Virus record (IMG/VR): IMGVR_UViG_3300028602_000031
Origin: a virus
Length of the DNA: 42,444 nt
Reading direction: 5' to 3' (one strand)
Below, piece after piece: positions 1-42,444 of this stretch. The position numbers and the translations under genes are program-made. The notes beneath the pieces are model-generated. The model was not told the origin of the DNA, did not search any database, and saw only the letters and a list, made by a program, of their open reading frames with translations. How positions within the stretch are numbered: the first letter of the stretch is position 1; each line of letters begins with the position of its first letter.

Positions 1-1014
1 GTGGGAAATACATACACCACCAAATCGACTTCTTATACTGCCTCTGCTGCACCTATTCATGTTCTGCCCGCCCTCTCAGATGGAGCAATATACAGAATTG
101 AAGAAATCCATGCGAAATTAAGAAACGAGCACTCCGGCACGGTAACATATATGAAAGTTACTATGAAGACTGGAACCGGGGCTGAGGTTACCCTGGCAGA
201 GTGGACTACTTCTTCTAATTCCTTTGTTTCAAAATCGGCAGTAATCTCGAAGGAATCAGCTACAGGGCAGCCCCTAACGTTCAGGTATTATATGAGATCC
301 GGTTCAGCGAGCTATAAGGCAGTTGCTACTGAAATAGGATACAAGATAACGGAAATGACTGCGGGCGTGGTGACATCAAGCAATGTCTACATGTGGAACA
401 CGGCAGATACAACTCAGGTAATGGATTGCTGTGACACGCTTCTTCCAAAATACAGGATGGAGATAAACTCCGATGGAAGCGGTAGCCTTACCTATGCAGA
501 AGATTTCCTTGATTCAAATTATACAATTACGCTTGCTGCATCTTCAGGGGTTACATACAATTCCACAAACAAGTCTATTGTTATCGCTTCAGGCGGGTAT
601 ATAACATTCGCTATGCCATGTAAATATCCGGTAACAGGTGTTCCGTACCTGAAAGCCTACGTTTTTTCAGGTGCTCCCCAAATATCAATTGCTGAAACGC
701 TCAGTGGCACATATTACGCCATCGATGGTAATCAAACAGCAGAAACCACCGGAGCGGAAATAAACAGACTGCTGGAAAATGAAAATAGTTTGGAACTGGC
801 TAACAAAACTGCATTTTATGTGAAGATCGCTCCTGATACTGGAAATAGCTGTGAATTTGGGAAATTGAAACTTTCTGCTGCACTCTCAACGATTGACGCT
901 GAACGGTTTAAAATTTATGCTACGAAAAAGGCGAATACGATAGGAATTCAGGTTTCCGGAAAATCGTCATTGATTGCAACTTTAAGGTACAGAGATTTAG
1001 ACCCTGCGACGTGA
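1..1014 (+). CDS. Putative virion/tail structural protein (probably 5'-truncated by the window)
   Basis: 337 aa, Ser/Thr/Ala-rich and beta-strand-like; directly upstream of the baseplate hub-like gene. Confidence 0.4.
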   Translation: MGNTYTTKSTSYTASAAPIHVLPALSDGAIYRIEEIHAKLRNEHSGTVTYMKVTMKTGTGAEVTLAEWTTSSNSFVSKSAVISKESATGQPLTFRYYMRSGSASYKAVATEIGYKITEMTAGVVTSSNVYMWNTADTTQVMDCCDTLLPKYRMEINSDGSGSLTYAEDFLDSNYTITLAASSGVTYNSTNKSIVIASGGYITFAMPCKYPVTGVPYLKAYVFSGAPQISIAETLSGTYYAIDGNQTAETTGAEINRLLENENSLELANKTAFYVKIAPDTGNSCEFGKLKLSAALSTIDAERFKIYATKKANTIGIQVSGKSSLIATLRYRDLDPAT

Positions 1015-1018
1015 TAAC

Positions 1019-2191
1019 ATGATCCGAATAGTGAACATCCGGCTAGTGGTTGAAAAACCTTCTACCCATGCAAAATATTACCCACAGGTTATCTCTGCAT
1101 CTACTCAGCAGAGTTATCCGTTTTCGGTTTCCGGAGCAGAAATAAACGTAGTCTCGAATAATTCTCCTTCCAGTTCCGGATATGCTTCCCCAATAAATTT
1201 TGACGATATAATCAGGTTGCAAGTCTCCGTAAAAATGGATAAAAACGAAAAAACAGTATGGCAAGATCTGTTTCATGGGAGGATAGAAAACCTTTCATCT
1301 GAATTTGGAACAGGAAACCAGTTAAAAATTTATGCCGTTGGACACGAAGCAGAACTTAAAACTGATCTGATCTCAGAGGCAAAAGAATATACAACATCTA
1401 CAGACGCAAAAATTCTATTATCCTATTTCTCTAGATATTTCAATAGATTAACATATTTAGATTCGAGAGCTTCAACCGGAGTGAGTTTCCCGACTTATGA
1501 TTCAAATGCAGACCAGATGTACTTGTCGGACCTTATAGGCGACATGGAGACAAATAGCGGGGGAAAGTGGATTTTTGAGGTAATCCCTACTTATGATAGT
1601 AGTAAAAATCTGAGTACCAGATATGTTTCCTGGAGACAATTTGTTACAGCAGGATCTTTTACAGCTACTCCTGTAAAATCGTACAAGGTTATAGAAGGAA
1701 CTCGGAGGCTTATAGCTGCCGATTTTGATGTAGAAGGAGAAGGTGTATTTACTTTTCACAGAGTTTATGGAGCTACATCAGACGGAGGATTACAATATAA
1801 AGGATCTGCCGTAGATGCTGCACTATTGGCACTATACGGAAGGAGGAGCACTGTAGATACTTACCCCTGGATCAAATCGAATAGTTTATGTGATTCGGTA
1901 GCAACAGGGTTACTAAGCTCTGAAAAAGATCCAGAAACTTCGGGGCAGGTATTGTTAATAGGGACTCCCCAGGCGAAACTCGGAGATTATGTTTATGTAA
2001 AAATACCATCTGAAGAGATTAATGGTGCTTCTATCCTTGGATATTTTTATGTCAAGAGGGTTCAGCATATGATTGATAGAGGAAAATTTCATACAAGGCT
2101 GGACTTTGGAAAAGTAAAAAAAGAAGCAGAGGACTATATAGCGAAGGTATCTGCAACAACGAAATTATGCAAAAAAAGTTTAGTGAAGTGA
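1019..2191 (+). CDS. Putative tail/baseplate hub protein (gpD/gp27-like)
   Basis: 390 aa; LFHGRIENL...IYAVG and C-terminal GTPQAKLGDYVYVKIP...YFYVKRVQHMID patterns resemble phage late-control D/hub proteins. Confidence 0.5.
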   Translation: MIRIVNIRLVVEKPSTHAKYYPQVISASTQQSYPFSVSGAEINVVSNNSPSSSGYASPINFDDIIRLQVSVKMDKNEKTVWQDLFHGRIENLSSEFGTGNQLKIYAVGHEAELKTDLISEAKEYTTSTDAKILLSYFSRYFNRLTYLDSRASTGVSFPTYDSNADQMYLSDLIGDMETNSGGKWIFEVIPTYDSSKNLSTRYVSWRQFVTAGSFTATPVKSYKVIEGTRRLIAADFDVEGEGVFTFHRVYGATSDGGLQYKGSAVDAALLALYGRRSTVDTYPWIKSNSLCDSVATGLLSSEKDPETSGQVLLIGTPQAKLGDYVYVKIPSEEINGASILGYFYVKRVQHMIDRGKFHTRLDFGKVKKEAEDYIAKVSATTKLCKKSLVK

Positions 2192-7159: not shown

Positions 7160-7330
7160 CTGAAAGAGGAAGGATAGTGACTACTCCCATCACTGAAGTG
7201 ACGGGCATCTTCCGATTTTACGGTCAGATTGTAATCCCAATCTGAGAATATTAATTGAAGCATTAAGATCACGGTCAATAGACAGACCACAGAAAGGACA
7301 GTTATGAGTTCTTTCTGATAGGTCTTTTTC
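7160..7330 (-). ncRNA. Predicted TnpB omega/reRNA (scaffold overlapping the tnpB 3' end, plus flank-derived guide TATCCTTCCTCTTTCAG)
   Basis: Known architecture of IS200/IS605 right ends; 5' boundary is a guess. Confidence 0.55.
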
Positions 7331-8411
7331 TACCAACATCCCACAACTTGAACACATTTTTGAGGTATTCTTAGGATCAACAAGAACCACTTTTCTACCA
7401 GCATTTTCAGCTTTGTAGGAAGTATAAGTTACAAGTTTACTCCAAGCTGCATCAAGAATGTGCTTTGCAAGATTGTGATTTTTTGTCATGTTCTTAATGT
7501 TAAGATCTTCAAAACAGATTATACCGTAATTATTAATGAGTTCTTTACTGAATTTTTGAGTAAAATCTTCTCTCTTGTTAGCAATCCTTTCATAGGCTCT
7601 ACACAACGTTTTAAGGCATTTCTGTCTTTCAGGAGTACCTTTTTCGGCTTTAGAAAGTTTTCTGTTAGCTCTTGCAAGTGCCTTTTCTTCTTGAATATAG
7701 AATCTAGGATTGGGAACATAAGTTCCATTCGATAATGTAGCAAAGGAGAGGATTCCAACATCAATACCTACTGACTTATCAGAAGGTTGAAGTGGTTGAT
7801 AAGTTTCAGCATCAGTAAGTATTGAAACAAACCATTTACCAGTTGAAGTTTTCCTGATAGTTAAGCGTTTAATATTTCCTTCAAGTGGTCTATGCAATTT
7901 TATTTTTATATCTCCGATTTTGGAGAGAGTTAACATATTGCTATTTAAGGAAAAACCAGATTGCAAGTAGGTAATACTGTCATACCAACCTTTACCTTTA
8001 AAACGGGGGTATCCTGCTTTTTCTCCGGCTTTAACTCTACGGAAAAAAGCTTGAAAAGCAAGATCAACGCGCATAGTCACATCTTGAAGTGTATGAGAAT
8101 GAACGGTTTTCAATTCTGGTTTATCTTTCTTCCAGATAGGAATCATCTTTTTAGAATCATAATAACTGATTCTTTTCTGTTCAGATTCCCATGCATTCTT
8201 TCTTAGTGCTAGAGTTTCATTATAGACCCATCTACAGAGTTCCAAAGTAGAGTTAAGCTTTGTAACTTGTGATTTTGTTGGATAGATTCTATAACGATTC
8301 ACTTTAGGCATAATAAATAATATAGTCATTTTACCTAAATAAAGGTTACTATATTGAAGTTGACGGCTGTATCCCGCCATTAAAATGACGGGGATTAGCC
8401 TTAGACGCTAC
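7177..8411 (-). mobile_element. IS200/IS605-family non-autonomous element (tnpB only)
   Basis: Right end with hairpin CCCATCAC-TGAA-GTGACGGG (7186-7205), ending ...GTAGTCAC on the minus strand; imperfect left-end hairpin 8371-8395; no tnpA; left boundary approximate. Confidence 0.85.
7190..8311 (-). CDS. tnpB: RNA-guided endonuclease TnpB
   Basis: N-terminal YRIYPTKSQ HTH; RuvC I GIDVG, RuvC II FEDL, CSSC...CPFC zinc finger, RuvC III DRDLNA all intact; start re-called to ATG 8311. Confidence 0.95.
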   Translation of the reverse strand: MPKVNRYRIYPTKSQVTKLNSTLELCRWVYNETLALRKNAWESEQKRISYYDSKKMIPIWKKDKPELKTVHSHTLQDVTMRVDLAFQAFFRRVKAGEKAGYPRFKGKGWYDSITYLQSGFSLNSNMLTLSKIGDIKIKLHRPLEGNIKRLTIRKTSTGKWFVSILTDAETYQPLQPSDKSVGIDVGILSFATLSNGTYVPNPRFYIQEEKALARANRKLSKAEKGTPERQKCLKTLCRAYERIANKREDFTQKFSKELINNYGIICFEDLNIKNMTKNHNLAKHILDAAWSKLVTYTSYKAENAGRKVVLVDPKNTSKMCSSCGMLVEKDLSERTHNCPFCGLSIDRDLNASINILRLGLQSDRKIGRCPSLQ

Positions 8412-8415
8412 TAAA

Positions 8416-9135
8416 TTATTCCGAACTCTCTTTCTCGTTAATCCCTATCCACTTAACTAACTAACATTCATCATGCAATCCAAACCACTGTGGATAAACA
8501 GTATTCGCATCTTCAAGGTAATCGAGAACTTCTATCCCGTTAAAAAAATCATCACTTGCAGTACAACCACCGCTTCCTTCTCCAATATACAAGATCTTTC
8601 CTTCCGGATTCAATTCTGTGAAAAGTTCCGCAGCTTCCCTAGCCATCGGAGATTCGTACATTGCCCAACATGTAAGCAGAAAATCGGCTTTGTATTTACG
8701 AATAGCACCCCTGAAATCAAGGTTTTCAACTGGATAATATGATTTCCAATGAAAACTATCTTTTTTATGCCATGAATAATCATCCGTTGATATTATATTG
8801 ACTCCAGCTTCATGGAGGTACTTTGCTACAAGTCCTGTACCGGCTCCTACTTCAAGAACTGTTTTATCTCCGATGACTTGTTTCATTGCTCTAGCCCATT
8901 CTAAAGTAGGAGTCACAAAACCAATAACGGATCTTGCAACACTGAAATATGAGAAAGCGTCCCGACGCCTAAGTAATTTTGTATCCACACTCTCAACAAG
9001 CCTTTCATTAAGATGGAAATATAGGAATGATTTAATTTCGTTAGAATTTGCCTCGAATGAATTATATGTATGTGGATATGTATGTGAATATCCATCGAAC
9101 TGATCCCATGCTTTTTTAATTTCAGTAAAGGTCAT
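8416..9135 (-). CDS. Class I SAM-dependent methyltransferase with a probable in-frame amber (TAG 8461-8463) read-through
   Basis: VLEVGAGTG motif I, TDDYSW, YIGEGSGGCTA; past the TAG the frame continues LVKWIGINEKESSE to TAA 8416-8418. Confidence 0.7.
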
Positions 9136-9137
9136 CC

Positions 9138-9593
9138 TTATTCGCCCCGCTTTACCCATTTGTCTTTCTTCCAATCAAAATGATGTTTTGTATCCATCAA
9201 GAATTCTAACCACAAACATTCCATGCTCTTGTTTTTGTACCATTTATAACCTCTCTCTTTTACATATGCAGTGAACTCTATCAGTATAAAAACATTCGAA
9301 GAATCACTTTCTTTTCGTATGGCGAGAGATTGAAGTTGTTTTTGATTTGGAAGAGGTCGCAACGTTTCTAAATTCTCTAAATAGGTATAACCAACTTCTC
9401 CAATGAATTTGGCGTGTATTATTCTGGGGTCACTCCATACATCAAACTCAACTACCATCAGTTCTTTTTCCCTTTTTAGAGAGAATGCTTTATCTCCAGC
9501 TTTCCATTCCCAATTTTCAAAGAAATTAGATGGGAGTGCGAGGATCATCTTTTTATAAAGTTCGTTCATAAAAATCACCAATTTGTTTCCCAA
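9138..9593 (-). CDS. Hypothetical protein
   Basis: 151 aa ORF in the operon; LRPLPNQKQLQ...CLWLEFLM pattern. Confidence 0.6.
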   Translation of the reverse strand: MGNKLVIFMNELYKKMILALPSNFFENWEWKAGDKAFSLKREKELMVVEFDVWSDPRIIHAKFIGEVGYTYLENLETLRPLPNQKQLQSLAIRKESDSSNVFILIEFTAYVKERGYKWYKNKSMECLWLEFLMDTKHHFDWKKDKWVKRGE

Positions 9594-10285: not shown

Positions 10286-10501
10286 TCATTGTATAGGCTC
10301 ATTTTCGTTCCTCCATCTCTCGATCTCTTCTCGAATCGCGTATGGAAGTTGAGCCGTTATATCCCACTTGCTAGACCCATCTTCATGTGGGAAATCTCCA
10401 AAATACATCATGATCCTGTATTTTTCCTGCTTCACCGAAAGTCCATCTATACCCTTTATTAAAGATCTTGCTTCTCTAAGAGTTACCATATTTTTATTCA
10501 C
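10286..10501 (-). CDS. Hypothetical protein
   Basis: 71 aa ORF coupled to its neighbours. Confidence 0.5.
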   Translation of the reverse strand: MNKNMVTLREARSLIKGIDGLSVKQEKYRIMMYFGDFPHEDGSSKWDITAQLPYAIREEIERWRNENEPIQ

Positions 10502-10767: not shown

Positions 10768-10983
10768 TTAAAATTTCTTTCCCGTATATTGCCAATACTG
10801 CACTTCATCGTCAGCTTCTGAGAATTTGGTATTAAGAAATCCTTTGTCTACAAGTGCTTTCAAGGTAGTTGGAAAAACATGCTTAATTTCGCATTCAGTA
10901 AACCATCTTTTTGGATACGATTGATTTAGCTTGAAAATTCTTAACAATGCTGTTTTCTATGCTCTTGACAATCTCCCTTCCAT
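10768..10983 (-). CDS. Small winged-helix-like protein with in-frame TAG at codon 9 (recoded gene or pseudogene)
   Basis: Manual translation MEGRLSRA*KTALLRIFKLNQSYPKRWFTECEIKHVFPTTLKALVDKGFLNTKFSEADDEVQYWQYTGKKF; aligns with 6630-6848; GAGGA SD; absent from the ORF track. Confidence 0.6.
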
Positions 10984-11298
10984 GCAAGATTCCTCTGTTG
11001 AAGGAATTCCGTTGTCATCGTACATCAATTTACGCTTCTGTGTTTCCTTGACATCCCAAACACCAAGACTTCTTAACATCTTCCAGGTAACAATTACTTA
11101 AAAATCGCATTTCGGTTTGGAGAAAGAGTAACACATTTAATATATTTATAATTCAGCATTTTAAAAAAAGTTTATATATTAAGAACAACTTGGTAATATA
11201 AGATCAGTATCACTTTTTCTGAAAAACGGGGCATATATAAAGCGGGACTGAGAAAAAACGGCTCTTGTATGCGAACAAAGAAAAACGGATAAGAAGGA

Positions 11299-11396
11299 GA
11301 GGGAAAGACACCACTCTTTCCCTCAGTCGTCGCTGGACACCACTCCAGCTTAACGGATTTAAACCACCGAATTCGATCTCAATGAGATCTTATTCG
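11299..11396 (+). ncRNA. Structured RNA or leader: two hairpins with identical CACCAC loops plus a third hairpin
   Basis: GAGGGAAAGA-CACCAC-TCTTTCCCTC (11299-11324), GCTGGA-CACCAC-TCCAGC (11332-11349), CGAAT..GATCTC-AAT-GAGATC..ATTCG (11368-11396); TATA-like boxes upstream at about 11170 and about 11232. Confidence 0.5.
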
Positions 11397-11413
11397 ACAA
11401 GAGGTACAATAAC

Positions 11414-11467
11414 ATGCTCACACATGTTCTGTACATTGGTTCTATTGTTAAGTTCTTTTATAAATAA
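11414..11467 (+). CDS. Putative 17 aa hydrophobic small peptide (MLTHVLYIGSIVKFFYK)
   Basis: GAGGT SD at 11401-11405 with an 8 nt spacer, matching other viral start contexts. Confidence 0.3.
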   Translation: MLTHVLYIGSIVKFFYK

Positions 11468-11701
11468 GTTTCCTAATATATCATTAGAGAATCAATAGCC
11501 GTAAAATTTTATAAAAATCACCCGATCATGTTTTTTTCGCACACTGTATTTGAATTGAGTCTGTGTAGAAAAGACAGAACGGTACTTTTTTGAGGAGATA
11601 TTAAGCTTTTTTCGAGAATATTTGTGTTAAGAGATATGCGGAACGTGCCGCGACTCGGTGTAAAAAAGAAGTATATATATTTTACGTAGAAAAAAAAAGG
11701 A

Positions 11702-41823: not shown

Positions 41824-42267
41824 GTAATACATTCATTATATACTATTGTTTATATTATAATCAATCTTTAACTTATATATACTTGATTATATACAATTAA
41901 GCTAAGTACAAACCCAATCCGGTGTTTCTATAAAAAGTGAGCAGGGCATCCTTATCATATGCCTCAAACTAAAAATATTTCCAAACATTATAAATAAAAT
42001 ATACATGTTACTACTCAATACCGTTTTTTATACACCGCAAACTCAATTTTACTCATTACTTATTTAATTATTTAAAGAAGAATACAACAAAACCCAAAGG
42101 TTTTAAAAGGAAATCGCTATGCCAAACTCAATATCAAAAATTTTAAAAAACAAAAATACCACTAAACAGTAAAAATATAAAAATAAAGTATTATTAAAGA
42201 GTAGTTTTCCGATAAATATAAGCCCGCTCACCAACTGCAATACCAGCAGTGCAATCTGCATCCTTGA

Positions 42268-42444
42268 GTCAATGACCCCCCACTGAAGTAGGGGGCTTGT
42301 AACTAACTTACGTTGTTACGTTTGGTTGATTGACAGACAACCTACTCAGGCAAGATATACCCGCCTGAGCAATGTTTTGAGAGGCATTAAGGTCACTATG
42401 CAACTGAAAACCACAAGCTTTACAATGGTAAGAATTGCCTTTCC
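42268..42444 (-). mobile_element. Right end of a second IS200/IS605 tnpB element (runs off the window)
   Basis: Terminal hairpin CCCCC-CACTGAAGTA-GGGGG (42276-42295), ending ...CATTGAC on the minus strand. Confidence 0.8.
42308..42444 (-). CDS. tnpB: TnpB C-terminus (partial, not in ORF track)
   Basis: Manual translation KGNSYHCKACGFQLHSDLNASQNIAQAGISCLSRLSVNQPNVTT-stop: zinc finger half plus RuvC III Asp. Confidence 0.85.
   Translation of the reverse strand, partial: KGNSYHCKACGFQLHSDLNASQNIAQAGISCLSRLSVNQPNVTT

What the first reader, a model, noticed from the sequence alone, without database searches (positions are those of the whole stretch)
8416..9135. Methyltransferase with apparent amber read-through near its C-terminus
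Seen: ...YPQWFGLHDEC-TAG-LVKWIGINEKESSE-TAA; this is the only TAG-ending gene in the window, and the 14 extra codons fill the gap up to the IS left end. Recollection, needs checking: phage homologs end W-x-G-(I/L)-H-D-x-x-x-L-(V/I)-K, so the last strand of the fold lies after the TAG. Inference: pyrrolysine is inserted here, making an active enzyme dependent on host Pyl. Alternative: a recent nonsense mutation.
Basis: partly seen in the sequence, partly recalled or inferred. Interest (0 to 1): 0.85.

Follow-up and report, generated by a model that had tools for sequence, protein, structure and literature searches.

The report
Amber codon in viral methyltransferase gene
A virus that most likely infects the methane-making archaeon Methanosarcina carries a methyltransferase gene in which one recent G-to-A change turned a tryptophan codon into TAG inside the last structural strand; the host can read TAG as pyrrolysine, so the full-length enzyme is probably still made in part, which is a viral example of a known host habit, not a new mechanism.

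Summary
On the minus strand, a 239-codon class I SAM-methyltransferase frame (9135 to 8416) has a TAG at codon 225 (8461-8463). Fourteen in-frame codons and a TAA follow, and an IS605-type element begins 5 nt after the TAA.

141 of 142 family members run at least 6 residues past the invariant Asp222, and AlphaFold places the last strand at residues 223-229.

The TAG is private to this contig. All 10 close relatives (91-97% identical) have TGG, and three relatives have identical DNA in the last 51 nt except TGG for TAG. It is therefore a very recent nonsense transition.

The likely host is Methanosarcina. The IS copies are 87-88% identical to Methanosarcina IS copies, and all five of those genomes carry PylS. 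TAG almost never ends a gene in the window.

Among 12 related contigs, every in-frame stop found is TAG (three sites) and none is TAA or TGA.

Best reading: a tolerated amber allele, partly read through as pyrrolysine. I found no evidence for an evolved dependence on Pyl.

The scan has noted in-frame TAGs in other methanogen viruses on other DNA. Interest is moderate.

The parts
8416..9135 (-). Class I SAM-dependent methyltransferase reading frame, 239 codons if TAG is translated. Substrate unknown. A possible alternative start lies at 9159.
   Evidence: Translation. 3382 homologs at E<=1e-3. Weak Pfam methyltransferase hits and a match to phrog_19090. AF2 pLDDT 92.5. VIA-align Z of about 10 to Trm14, COMT and METTL21-type methyltransferases.
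8461..8463 (-). In-frame amber codon, codon 225. It is TGG (Trp) in all 10 close relatives. In the wider family the column is variable and mostly Tyr.
   Evidence: column counts: Y41, S17, M17, F8, Q7, W6, H6, R6.
8449..8469 (-). Codons 223-229, the last beta-strand (beta7) of the Rossmann-like sheet, straddling the TAG.
   Evidence: DSSP on the full-length AF2 model gives E223-229 and E201-205. In the model cut at residue 224, neither 201-205 nor the C-terminus is assigned as a strand.
8416..8460 (-). Fourteen post-TAG codons (LVKWIGINEKESSE) and the TAA, which is the family's own stop.
   Evidence: DNA identical to L082, L083 and L084. L226 and K228 are conserved in the family.
8833..8859 (-). 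SAM-binding motif I (VLEVGAGTG, residues 93-101), intact.
   Evidence: G99 and G101 are invariant and L94 and E95 nearly invariant in the 143-sequence alignment.
7177..8410 (-). IS200/IS605-type element carrying only tnpB (7190-8380). It is inserted 5 nt after the methyltransferase stop, next to TTTAG (8411-8415).
   Evidence: Pfam OrfB_IS605, Cas12f1-like_TNB and HTH_OrfB_IS605. 87-88% nt identity to copies in Methanosarcina genomes. Absent from L001 and L082-L085.
10768..11079 (-). Context: a second conserved gene (103 codons, winged-helix-like small protein) with an in-frame TAG at codon 41 (10957-10959). L084 shares the TAG. Six relatives have Gln (CAA or CAG) there.
10286..10501 (-). Context: a 71-codon gene whose Lys24 codon (AAG) is TAG in relative L085.

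Best explanation
The gene is an otherwise intact accessory class I SAM-dependent methyltransferase of a tailed-virus-like element of Methanosarcina. Its substrate is unknown.

In this one lineage a single G-to-A transition changed Trp225 (TGG) to UAG. Codon 225 sits in the last beta-strand, at a position the family lets vary.

[quoted passage not shown] The mRNA should therefore give two products:
- a full-length 239-residue protein with pyrrolysine at position 225, probably active;
- a 224-residue product that lacks the strand bridging beta5 and beta6, probably unstable.

The ratio would follow the host's Pyl supply and demand. The allele is best seen as a nearly neutral or mildly deleterious amber polymorphism that Pyl decoding allows to persist. 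It is the viral counterpart of the 'singleton' Pyl residues described in Methanosarcina cellular proteins.

Shown: the codon, its derived state, the homology and fold on both sides of it, and the Pyl machinery in the candidate host genomes. Inferred: the identity of the host, that Pyl is actually inserted here, and that the Pyl form is active.
For: (1) The frame and tail are intact and homologous. 141 of 142 homologs extend at least 6 residues beyond Asp222, and the tail DNA is identical to that of TGG alleles.

(2) Structure. The full-length model has pLDDT 92.5 with strands 201-205 and 223-229. The model cut at residue 224 loses both strand assignments. Structural alignments to solved class I methyltransferases reach model residues 229-233.

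(3) Column 225 is variable (Y, S, M, F, Q, W, H, R), whereas 224 and 226 are hydrophobic. A bulky substituent at 225 is therefore plausibly tolerated.

(4) Host. The adjacent IS is 87-88% nt identical to copies in Methanosarcina genomes. The right end of the window matches a multi-copy Methanosarcina repeat. PylS scores above the curated cut-off in 5 of 5 of those genomes.

(5) TAG ends at most 1 of about 77 credible genes. That gives P=1.8e-4 at the 13.5% TAG usage of Pyl-minus Methanosarcina and P=0.10 at the 4.9% usage of Pyl-plus Methanosarcinaceae (usage figures from PMC12626013).

(6) Among the window and 11 related contigs, all in-frame stops in alignments of at least 88% identity are TAG (3 independent sites), with no TAA or TGA. 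The chance of that under the codon-usage-based nonsense spectrum is 0.02-0.04. One of these TAGs is shared by two assemblies from different samples.

(7) Literature. UAG has a dual meaning in M. acetivorans and needs no motif (PMC12626013, PMC13663744, PMC8211752). Singleton Pyl residues are attributed to neutral mutation (bioRxiv 10.1101/2024.09.30.615893).
Against: - The TAG is found in this contig only (0 of 10 relatives). There is no conservation of the codon and no measurable selection after it.
- A distant homolog (P0033 in L097) carries an in-frame TGA one codon after the same Asp, with a recognisable tail behind it. Its contig uses TGA as an ordinary stop. Plainly broken alleles of this accessory gene therefore do get sampled.
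- The host is inferred only from IS and repeat similarity and from stop usage. No CRISPR spacer or provirus match was found.
- Some Methanosarcina lack Pyl (PMC12626013).
- No tRNA(Pyl) is present in the window.
- No PYLIS-like structure is present. The only hairpin downstream belongs to the IS end.
- Read-through efficiency at this codon is unknown.
Confidence: 0.6

Rival explanations
1. Plain loss-of-function allele. The TGG-to-TAG change is a fresh nonsense mutation in a dispensable accessory gene. Termination dominates, the truncated protein is useless, and the gene is on its way to decay. The IS next door fits a region under relaxed constraint.
For: - The TAG is private to this contig and TGG is present in 10 of 10 relatives.
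- The tail is identical to that of intact alleles, so no time has passed for selection to act.
- A TGA-interrupted homolog exists elsewhere.
- This methyltransferase was not found in five Methanosarcina genomes and varies among relatives in its flanks, as accessory genes do.
- UAG still recruits release factor in Methanosarcina (PMC12626013).
Against: - In a Pyl-proficient host some read-through is expected at any UAG (PMC12626013, PMC8211752), so 'fully dead' needs a Pyl-minus host or an intolerant site. Column 225 is variable.
- All three in-frame stop sites in this virus group are TAG and none is TAA or TGA.
- One TAG allele has persisted in two diverged haplotypes.
Confidence: 0.27
2. Programmed, adaptive Pyl dependence. 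The virus uses UAG in this gene, and in the small winged-helix gene, as a valve that couples expression to the host's Pyl status.
For: - Two conserved genes in one window carry in-frame TAG.
- TAG is avoided as a terminator.
- Read-through in M. acetivorans is proposed to vary with methylamine versus methanol growth (PMC12626013, PMC13663744).
Against: - The methyltransferase TAG is a singleton.
- The winged-helix TAG is in 2 of 8 alleles only.
- No conserved context or RNA structure was found.
- The pattern fits drift as well as design.
Confidence: 0.08
3. Artefact. The A at 8462 is a consensus or assembly error, or a minority variant in the metagenome, and the real virus has TGG.
For: It is a single-base difference from all relatives. 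It comes from a metagenome-assembled contig that I cannot check against reads.
Against: - Consensus errors at single bases are rare in assembled short-read contigs.
- The other in-frame TAG of the window is reproduced in an independent assembly (L084).
- A relative (L085) has its own TAG at a third site.
Confidence: 0.05

Closest known systems
tRNA(His) guanylyltransferase Thg1 of Methanosarcina acetivorans (Heinemann et al. 2009, PNAS 106:21103; cited in PMC12626013 and PMC8211752; the paper itself is not held in the library)
   Same: A non-methylamine enzyme with one in-frame UAG at a non-conserved position. It is read as Pyl by the host machinery and interpreted as arising by neutral evolution.
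   Different: Thg1 is a cellular gene and its Pyl was confirmed experimentally. Here the gene is viral, the TAG is seen in one contig only, and nothing has been tested.
Internal-TAG and short-extension TAG genes of Pyl-decoding archaea (Categories 1 and 2 of Kivenson et al., bioRxiv 10.1101/2024.09.30.615893)
   Same: An in-frame TAG with homology before and after it, in a Pyl-decoding lineage with low TAG usage. 'Singletons' are attributed to neutral mutation. Mobile-element genes (transposases, a casposon) are among their cases.
   Different: The 14-aa extension falls under their 15-aa limit, so formally this is Category 2 ('cannot predict'), although the tail is homologous. That paper does not mention viruses (0 occurrences).
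RdmS sensor kinase of M. acetivorans (Shalvarjian et al. 2025, PMC12626013)
   Same: One UAG gives both a long (Pyl) and a short (terminated) product in a Pyl-proficient background, and only the short product in a pylBCD deletion. This is the outcome I predict here.
   Different: RdmS is a cellular regulator whose TAG lies mid-protein. Here the TAG is 15 codons from the end, inside the last strand of a catalytic domain.
Methylamine methyltransferases MtmB, MtbB and MttB
   Same: UAG is decoded as Pyl in Methanosarcina.
   Different: These are unrelated folds (TIM-barrel corrinoid methyltransferases). Their Pyl is catalytic and strictly conserved, and mtmB has a downstream PYLIS-like element. 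None of this applies here.
Amber-recoded bacteriophages (stop-codon reassignment in phages; referred to in 10.1101/2024.09.30.615893 as code switching in phages)
   Same: A virus whose genes contain in-frame TAG that must be translated.
   Different: Those phages carry many in-frame TAGs, often with their own suppressor tRNA or release-factor genes. This window has two TAGs, no tRNA, and would rely on the host's natural Pyl system.

Membership tests
Class I (Rossmann-like) SAM-dependent methyltransferases | Seven-stranded sheet with a C-terminal beta6-beta7 hairpin. | tested here: met
   AF2 strands at 92-96, 113-118, 136-137, 152-156, 180-185, 201-205 and 223-229. VIA-align Z 9-10 to Trm14, COMT, METTL21 and DnrK over model residues of about 35-232. 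284 Foldseek PDB hits at E<=1e-3, with methyltransferases dominating the listed top hits.
Class I (Rossmann-like) SAM-dependent methyltransferases | Motif I (E/D-x-G-x-G-x-G) and an acidic residue at the end of beta2. | tested here: met
   VLEVGAGTG at residues 93-101. G99, G101 and D118 are invariant in 143 sequences.
Class I (Rossmann-like) SAM-dependent methyltransferases | Membership of a curated sequence family above its threshold. | tested here: not met
   Pfam DREV scores 20.3 bits (cut-off 26) and Methyltransf_23 scores 19.7 bits (cut-off 27). Only phrog_19090, of unknown function, matches at E=1.9e-13.
Class I (Rossmann-like) SAM-dependent methyltransferases | Methyl transfer from SAM to a defined substrate. 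| not testable with these tools
   The substrate is unknown. Source names such as 'nicotinamide N-methylase' and 'phospholipid N-methyltransferase' are automatic.
Genuine pyrrolysine-containing protein | An in-frame TAG with homologous sequence on both sides. | tested here: met
Genuine pyrrolysine-containing protein | The translating organism has pylT and pylS (with pylBCD). | tested here: inconclusive
   The host is not identified directly. The five Methanosarcina/Methanosarcinaceae genomes holding the closest IS copies all carry PylS above the cut-off. pylT and pylBCD were not searched. No genome is held for the window.
Genuine pyrrolysine-containing protein | The TAG is kept at the site in related sequences. 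| tested here: not met
   0 of 10 close relatives have it; all have TGG. More distant homologs have sense codons.
Genuine pyrrolysine-containing protein | Pyl detected in the protein by mass spectrometry. | not testable with these tools
   This needs expression and proteomics.
Kivenson Category 1 (internal TAG) gene | Read-through extends the protein by more than 15 aa, with at least 30% identity to known proteins before and after the TAG. | tested here: not met
   The extension is 14 aa, so formally this is Category 2. Homology after the TAG is present. The neighbouring 103-codon gene (62-aa extension, homologs on both sides) would qualify.
PYLIS-assisted UAG decoding (mtmB type) | A stable conserved stem-loop directly 3' of the UAG. 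| tested here: not met
   The 103 nt from the TAG fold at -25.3 kcal/mol, z=-1.8. The strong hairpin lies in the IS end, which relatives lack.
IS200/IS605 family (neighbouring element) | TnpB with OrfB_IS605 and zinc-ribbon (TNB) domains, and insertion without target duplication next to a short target motif. | tested here: met
   Pfam domains. The boundaries come from IS-free relatives and from other copies. TTTAG flanks the end. No tnpA is present.

The most novel reading that the evidence does not exclude
Viruses of Pyl-decoding methanogens do more than avoid TAG as a terminator. They exploit the host's ambiguous UAG. In-frame amber codons in early or accessory genes (this methyltransferase, the small winged-helix regulator 2.5 kb away, and a 71-codon gene in a sister contig) would act as a dosage valve. 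That valve would tie viral gene expression to the host's pyrrolysine supply and demand, and so to growth on methylamines versus other substrates. TAG would also serve as a viable stepping stone for Tyr-Trp exchanges (TAY-TAG-TGG).
Probability: 0.1. Interest if true: 0.8.

Novelty: new member of a known kind. Interest (0 to 1): 0.5.

Why it matters
If the full-length protein is made, this is a natural case of a virus protein containing the 22nd amino acid. It would show that the host's ambiguous UAG shapes viral genomes in two ways: TAG is purged as a terminator, and TAG nonsense mutations are buffered. That bears on three things:
- how gene callers truncate or split genes in viruses of methanogens;
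- predicting hosts from stop-codon usage;
- how an ambiguous codon changes the mutational paths open to a genome.

I found no description of Pyl in viral genes in the literature I could search. The mechanism itself is already established for cellular genes, so the conceptual gain is modest. This particular TAG is a one-contig polymorphism.

Tried and rejected
- Whole-genome search of the window's own assembly: none is held.
- tRNA and Rfam scans of the window: nothing found, so there is no virus-borne tRNA(Pyl) or known RNA element.
- megablast of 12 kb against GenBank phages: no match.
- Exact-pattern scans across the TAG in IMG/VR and JGI metagenome contigs: no match, so no further TAG or TGG alleles came from there.
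- Related loci for the Gp3-like protein in IMG/VR: none.
- Related loci for the 531-aa protein in metagenomes: only one relative, at 47% identity.
- Search for the methyltransferase in five Methanosarcina genomes: not found.
- Search for provirus or spacer matches: only short 28-33 nt hits, and these do not lie in repeat arrays. There is therefore no CRISPR evidence for the host.
- Comparison with the more distant virus contigs L002 and L092: no further in-frame TAG cases.
- PYLIS-like structure: not supported.
- AF2 of the truncated form stays confident (pLDDT 91.7). AF2 cannot judge stability, so only the loss of the strand assignment for 201-205 is informative.
- dN/dS downstream of the methyltransferase TAG: impossible, because the tail has zero differences from three TGG alleles.
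- Heinemann 2009 could not be read.

Full report
**What is there**

The feature lies on the minus strand. From the ATG at 9135 the frame reads 224 sense codons ending ...YPQWFGLHDEC. Then come TAG (8461-8463), 14 more sense codons (LVKWIGINEKESSE) and TAA (8416-8418).

Directly beyond, after TTTAG (8411-8415), begins a 1.23-kb element carrying only a TnpB gene (7190-8380; Pfam OrfB_IS605, Cas12f1-like_TNB and HTH_OrfB_IS605). Its limits are set in two ways. Five IS-free relatives lose homology to the window at 8410/8411. Other copies of the IS align to 7177-8415.

**What the protein is**

Pfam gives only sub-threshold methyltransferase hits, and PHROGs gives an unnamed family. The family is nevertheless large: 3382 representatives at E<=1e-3.

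An AlphaFold model built on 143 sequences is confident (pLDDT 92.5, pTM 0.90). It shows a Rossmann-like sheet with strands at 92-96, 113-118, 136-137, 152-156, 180-185, 201-205 and 223-229. Foldseek and VIA-align place it among class I SAM-dependent methyltransferases such as Trm14, COMT, METTL21/FAM86 and DnrK. Z is about 10, and the aligned ranges end at model residues 229-233.

Motif I (VLEVGAGTG) and the invariant D118 are intact. The substrate is unknown.

**Does the fold continue past the TAG?**

Yes. In the 143-sequence alignment the invariant Asp222 is followed by at least six residues in 141 of 142 homologs. Forty-eight of them end exactly at +6, giving the pattern D-x-[VIL]-x-L-x-[KR]. 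The TAG is at +3, inside the last strand.

When the protein cut at residue 224 is modelled with the same alignment, confidence stays high, as AF2 usually does. However, residues 201-205 are no longer assigned as a strand. This fits the canonical class I topology (established knowledge), in which beta7 lies between beta5 and beta6. Without beta7, beta6 has no partner.

Column 225 itself is variable (Y41, S17, M17, F8, Q7, W6, H6, R6), whereas 224 and 226 are hydrophobic. This suggests an outward-facing side chain that could accommodate a large residue.

The one homolog that ends at the Asp (P0033) turns out to have an in-frame TGA followed by P-F-L-V-R. Its contig uses TGA as a normal stop. That is a plain nonsense allele, and a reminder that broken copies of this gene get sampled.

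**How old is the TAG?**

The 90%-identity cluster holds ten other sequences, 91-97% identical to the window's protein. All have Trp at codon 225 and the same tail.

At the DNA level:
- L084 differs from the window at 11 of 720 positions and L085 at 13.
- In L082, L083 and L084 the last 51 nt are identical to the window except TGG for TAG.
- The window has no other private amino-acid change in this gene.

The TAG is thus a single, very recent G-to-A transition. For that reason, selection on the 14 downstream codons cannot be measured.

**Who translates it?**

No genome is held for the window. It is a whole 42,444-bp metagenome contig. Its gene content is that of a virus or virus-like element: integrase, Gp3-like protein, helicase, prim-pol, HNH nucleases, a thymidylate-synthase homolog and a weak tail-protein hit. 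A more distant homolog of the methyltransferase sits between the capsid and portal/terminase genes of a tailed virus.

The evidence for the host is as follows:
- The IS next to the gene is 87-88% identical in DNA (90-91% in TnpB protein) to copies in Methanosarcina sp. DH2, UBA5, UBA289 and Methanosarcinaceae MAGs.
- The right end of the window matches a multi-copy repeat of Methanosarcina sp. MSAR-AD1.
- All five of these genomes encode PylS above the curated NCBIfam cut-off.
- TAG ends at most 1 of about 77 credible genes. That is improbable at the 13.5% usage reported for Pyl-minus Methanosarcina (P=1.8e-4) and compatible with the 4.9% median of Pyl-plus Methanosarcinaceae (P=0.10) (usage figures from PMC12626013).

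I found no CRISPR spacer or provirus match. The host assignment is therefore an inference, though a reasonable one.

**Context from sister contigs**

I compared the window with 11 related contigs (L001, L082-L091) by translating every ORF of each against all the others. At 88% identity or more there are four in-frame stops at three independent sites, and all are TAG:
- Trp225 of the methyltransferase, in the window.
- Gln41 of a 103-codon winged-helix-like gene. It is TAG in the window at 10957-10959 and in L084, and CAA or CAG in six others.
- Lys24 (AAG) of a 71-codon gene, which is TAG in L085.

No TAA or TGA interruptions were found. From the window's codon usage, TAG should make up 29-34% of single-step nonsense mutations. 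Three out of three therefore has P of about 0.02-0.04, which is suggestive on a small sample.

For the winged-helix gene, the two TAG-bearing alleles differ downstream of the TAG by 9 synonymous and 1 non-synonymous changes (pN/pS about 0.03). Upstream they differ by only one change. That looks like recombination, so the downstream constraint may have been acquired in a non-TAG background. It does show that the TAG allele exists in two haplotypes from different samples.

**Mechanism**

Published work shows that in M. acetivorans a UAG gives both a long (Pyl) and a short (terminated) product, and only the short one when pylBCD is deleted. No cis element is required. Pyl supply, tRNA(Pyl) charging and ribosome dwell time at UAG change with growth on trimethylamine versus methanol (PMC12626013, PMC13663744, PMC8211752).

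The RNA downstream of this TAG has no notable structure of its own. z is -1.8, and the hairpin lies in the IS end.

I therefore expect a mixture of full-length Pyl225 enzyme and a truncated product lacking beta7. The proportion would be set by the host's Pyl economy. That is a consequence of the host's decoding, not evidence of design.

**Comparison with what is known**

The closest precedents are as follows:
- Thg1 of M. acetivorans, where Pyl arose by neutral evolution (Heinemann 2009, as cited in PMC12626013 and PMC8211752).
- The 'singleton' Pyl proteins and TAG categories of Kivenson et al. (bioRxiv 10.1101/2024.09.30.615893). By their rule, this 14-aa extension is Category 2 and the neighbouring winged-helix gene is Category 1.

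That preprint lists transposases, Cas proteins and a casposon, but it never mentions viruses. My literature searches found no paper on Pyl in archaeal virus genes. The library is incomplete, and the main compendium of methanogen viruses is not held.

I verified the two window-level notes myself and did not test the others.

**Verdict**

This is a recent nonsense mutation, and it is of the one kind that a Pyl-decoding host can read through.

I put 0.6 on partial Pyl read-through giving a functional full-length enzyme. The rivals get about 0.27 (an effectively dead allele), 0.08 (an evolved Pyl-dependent valve) and 0.05 (an artefact).

It is a new member of a known kind, notable mainly for being viral, and of moderate interest.

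Noticed in passing
window 10768-11079 (minus strand), TAG at 10957-10959; L084:731: A second conserved gene (103 codons, winged-helix-like) has an in-frame TAG at codon 41. An independent assembly (L084) shares it. Six relatives have Gln (CAA in L085-L087, CAG in L088-L090). Between the two TAG alleles there are 9 synonymous and 1 non-synonymous differences downstream of the TAG but only 1 synonymous difference upstream, which suggests recombination. A TTG four codons after the TAG could also serve as a restart.
   Followed up: yes
L085:1685 versus window 10286-10501 (minus strand): Sister contig L085 has TAG where the window's 71-codon gene has Lys24 (AAG), with 98.6% protein identity otherwise. 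The gene caller skipped this gene in L085.
   Followed up: partly
window 9019-9021 (methyltransferase codon 39) and codon 225: Codon 39 is TAT (Tyr) in the window and TGG (Trp) in L082 and L084, a two-step change whose single-step intermediates are TAG or TGT. At column 225 the family is mostly Tyr, this clade is Trp, and the window is TAG. This may hint that TAG can serve as a viable intermediate between Tyr and Trp in Pyl-decoding hosts.
   Followed up: no
L097:2679-2681 (protein P0033): A distant homolog (44% identity) of the methyltransferase has an in-frame TGA one codon after the invariant Asp, followed by a recognisable P-F-L-V-R tail. Its contig uses TGA as an ordinary stop. It is either a plain nonsense allele or an unexplained read-through.
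   Followed up: partly
window 42267-42434: The right end of the contig matches at least six copies (82-86% identity) of a repeat in Methanosarcina sp. MSAR-AD1 (G005). It is probably another IS or MITE at which the assembly broke.
   Followed up: no
window 11100-11700; L082:8257-8976; L085:417-1038; L088:1920-2543: A gap of about 600-700 bp with no called gene is conserved in all relatives. Its only ORF (77-85 codons, antisense to its neighbours, ending in TAG plus one codon plus a stop) is conserved too. It may be an RNA or a regulatory region and not a protein gene.
   Followed up: no
L091:1277-2341; window 7177-8410: Another relative (L091) also carries a TnpB-only IS shortly downstream of the same methyltransferase, but at a different position (after a 78-codon ORF). 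The flank of this gene seems to be a repeated landing site, and gene order around it is mosaic among relatives. In L084 the homolog of window 13-2179 lies about 1.5 kb from the methyltransferase.
   Followed up: no
L086:1047-3967: A sister contig carries a type I restriction-modification methylase (N6_Mtase) and a specificity subunit just upstream of the winged-helix gene. The window has other genes there.
   Followed up: no
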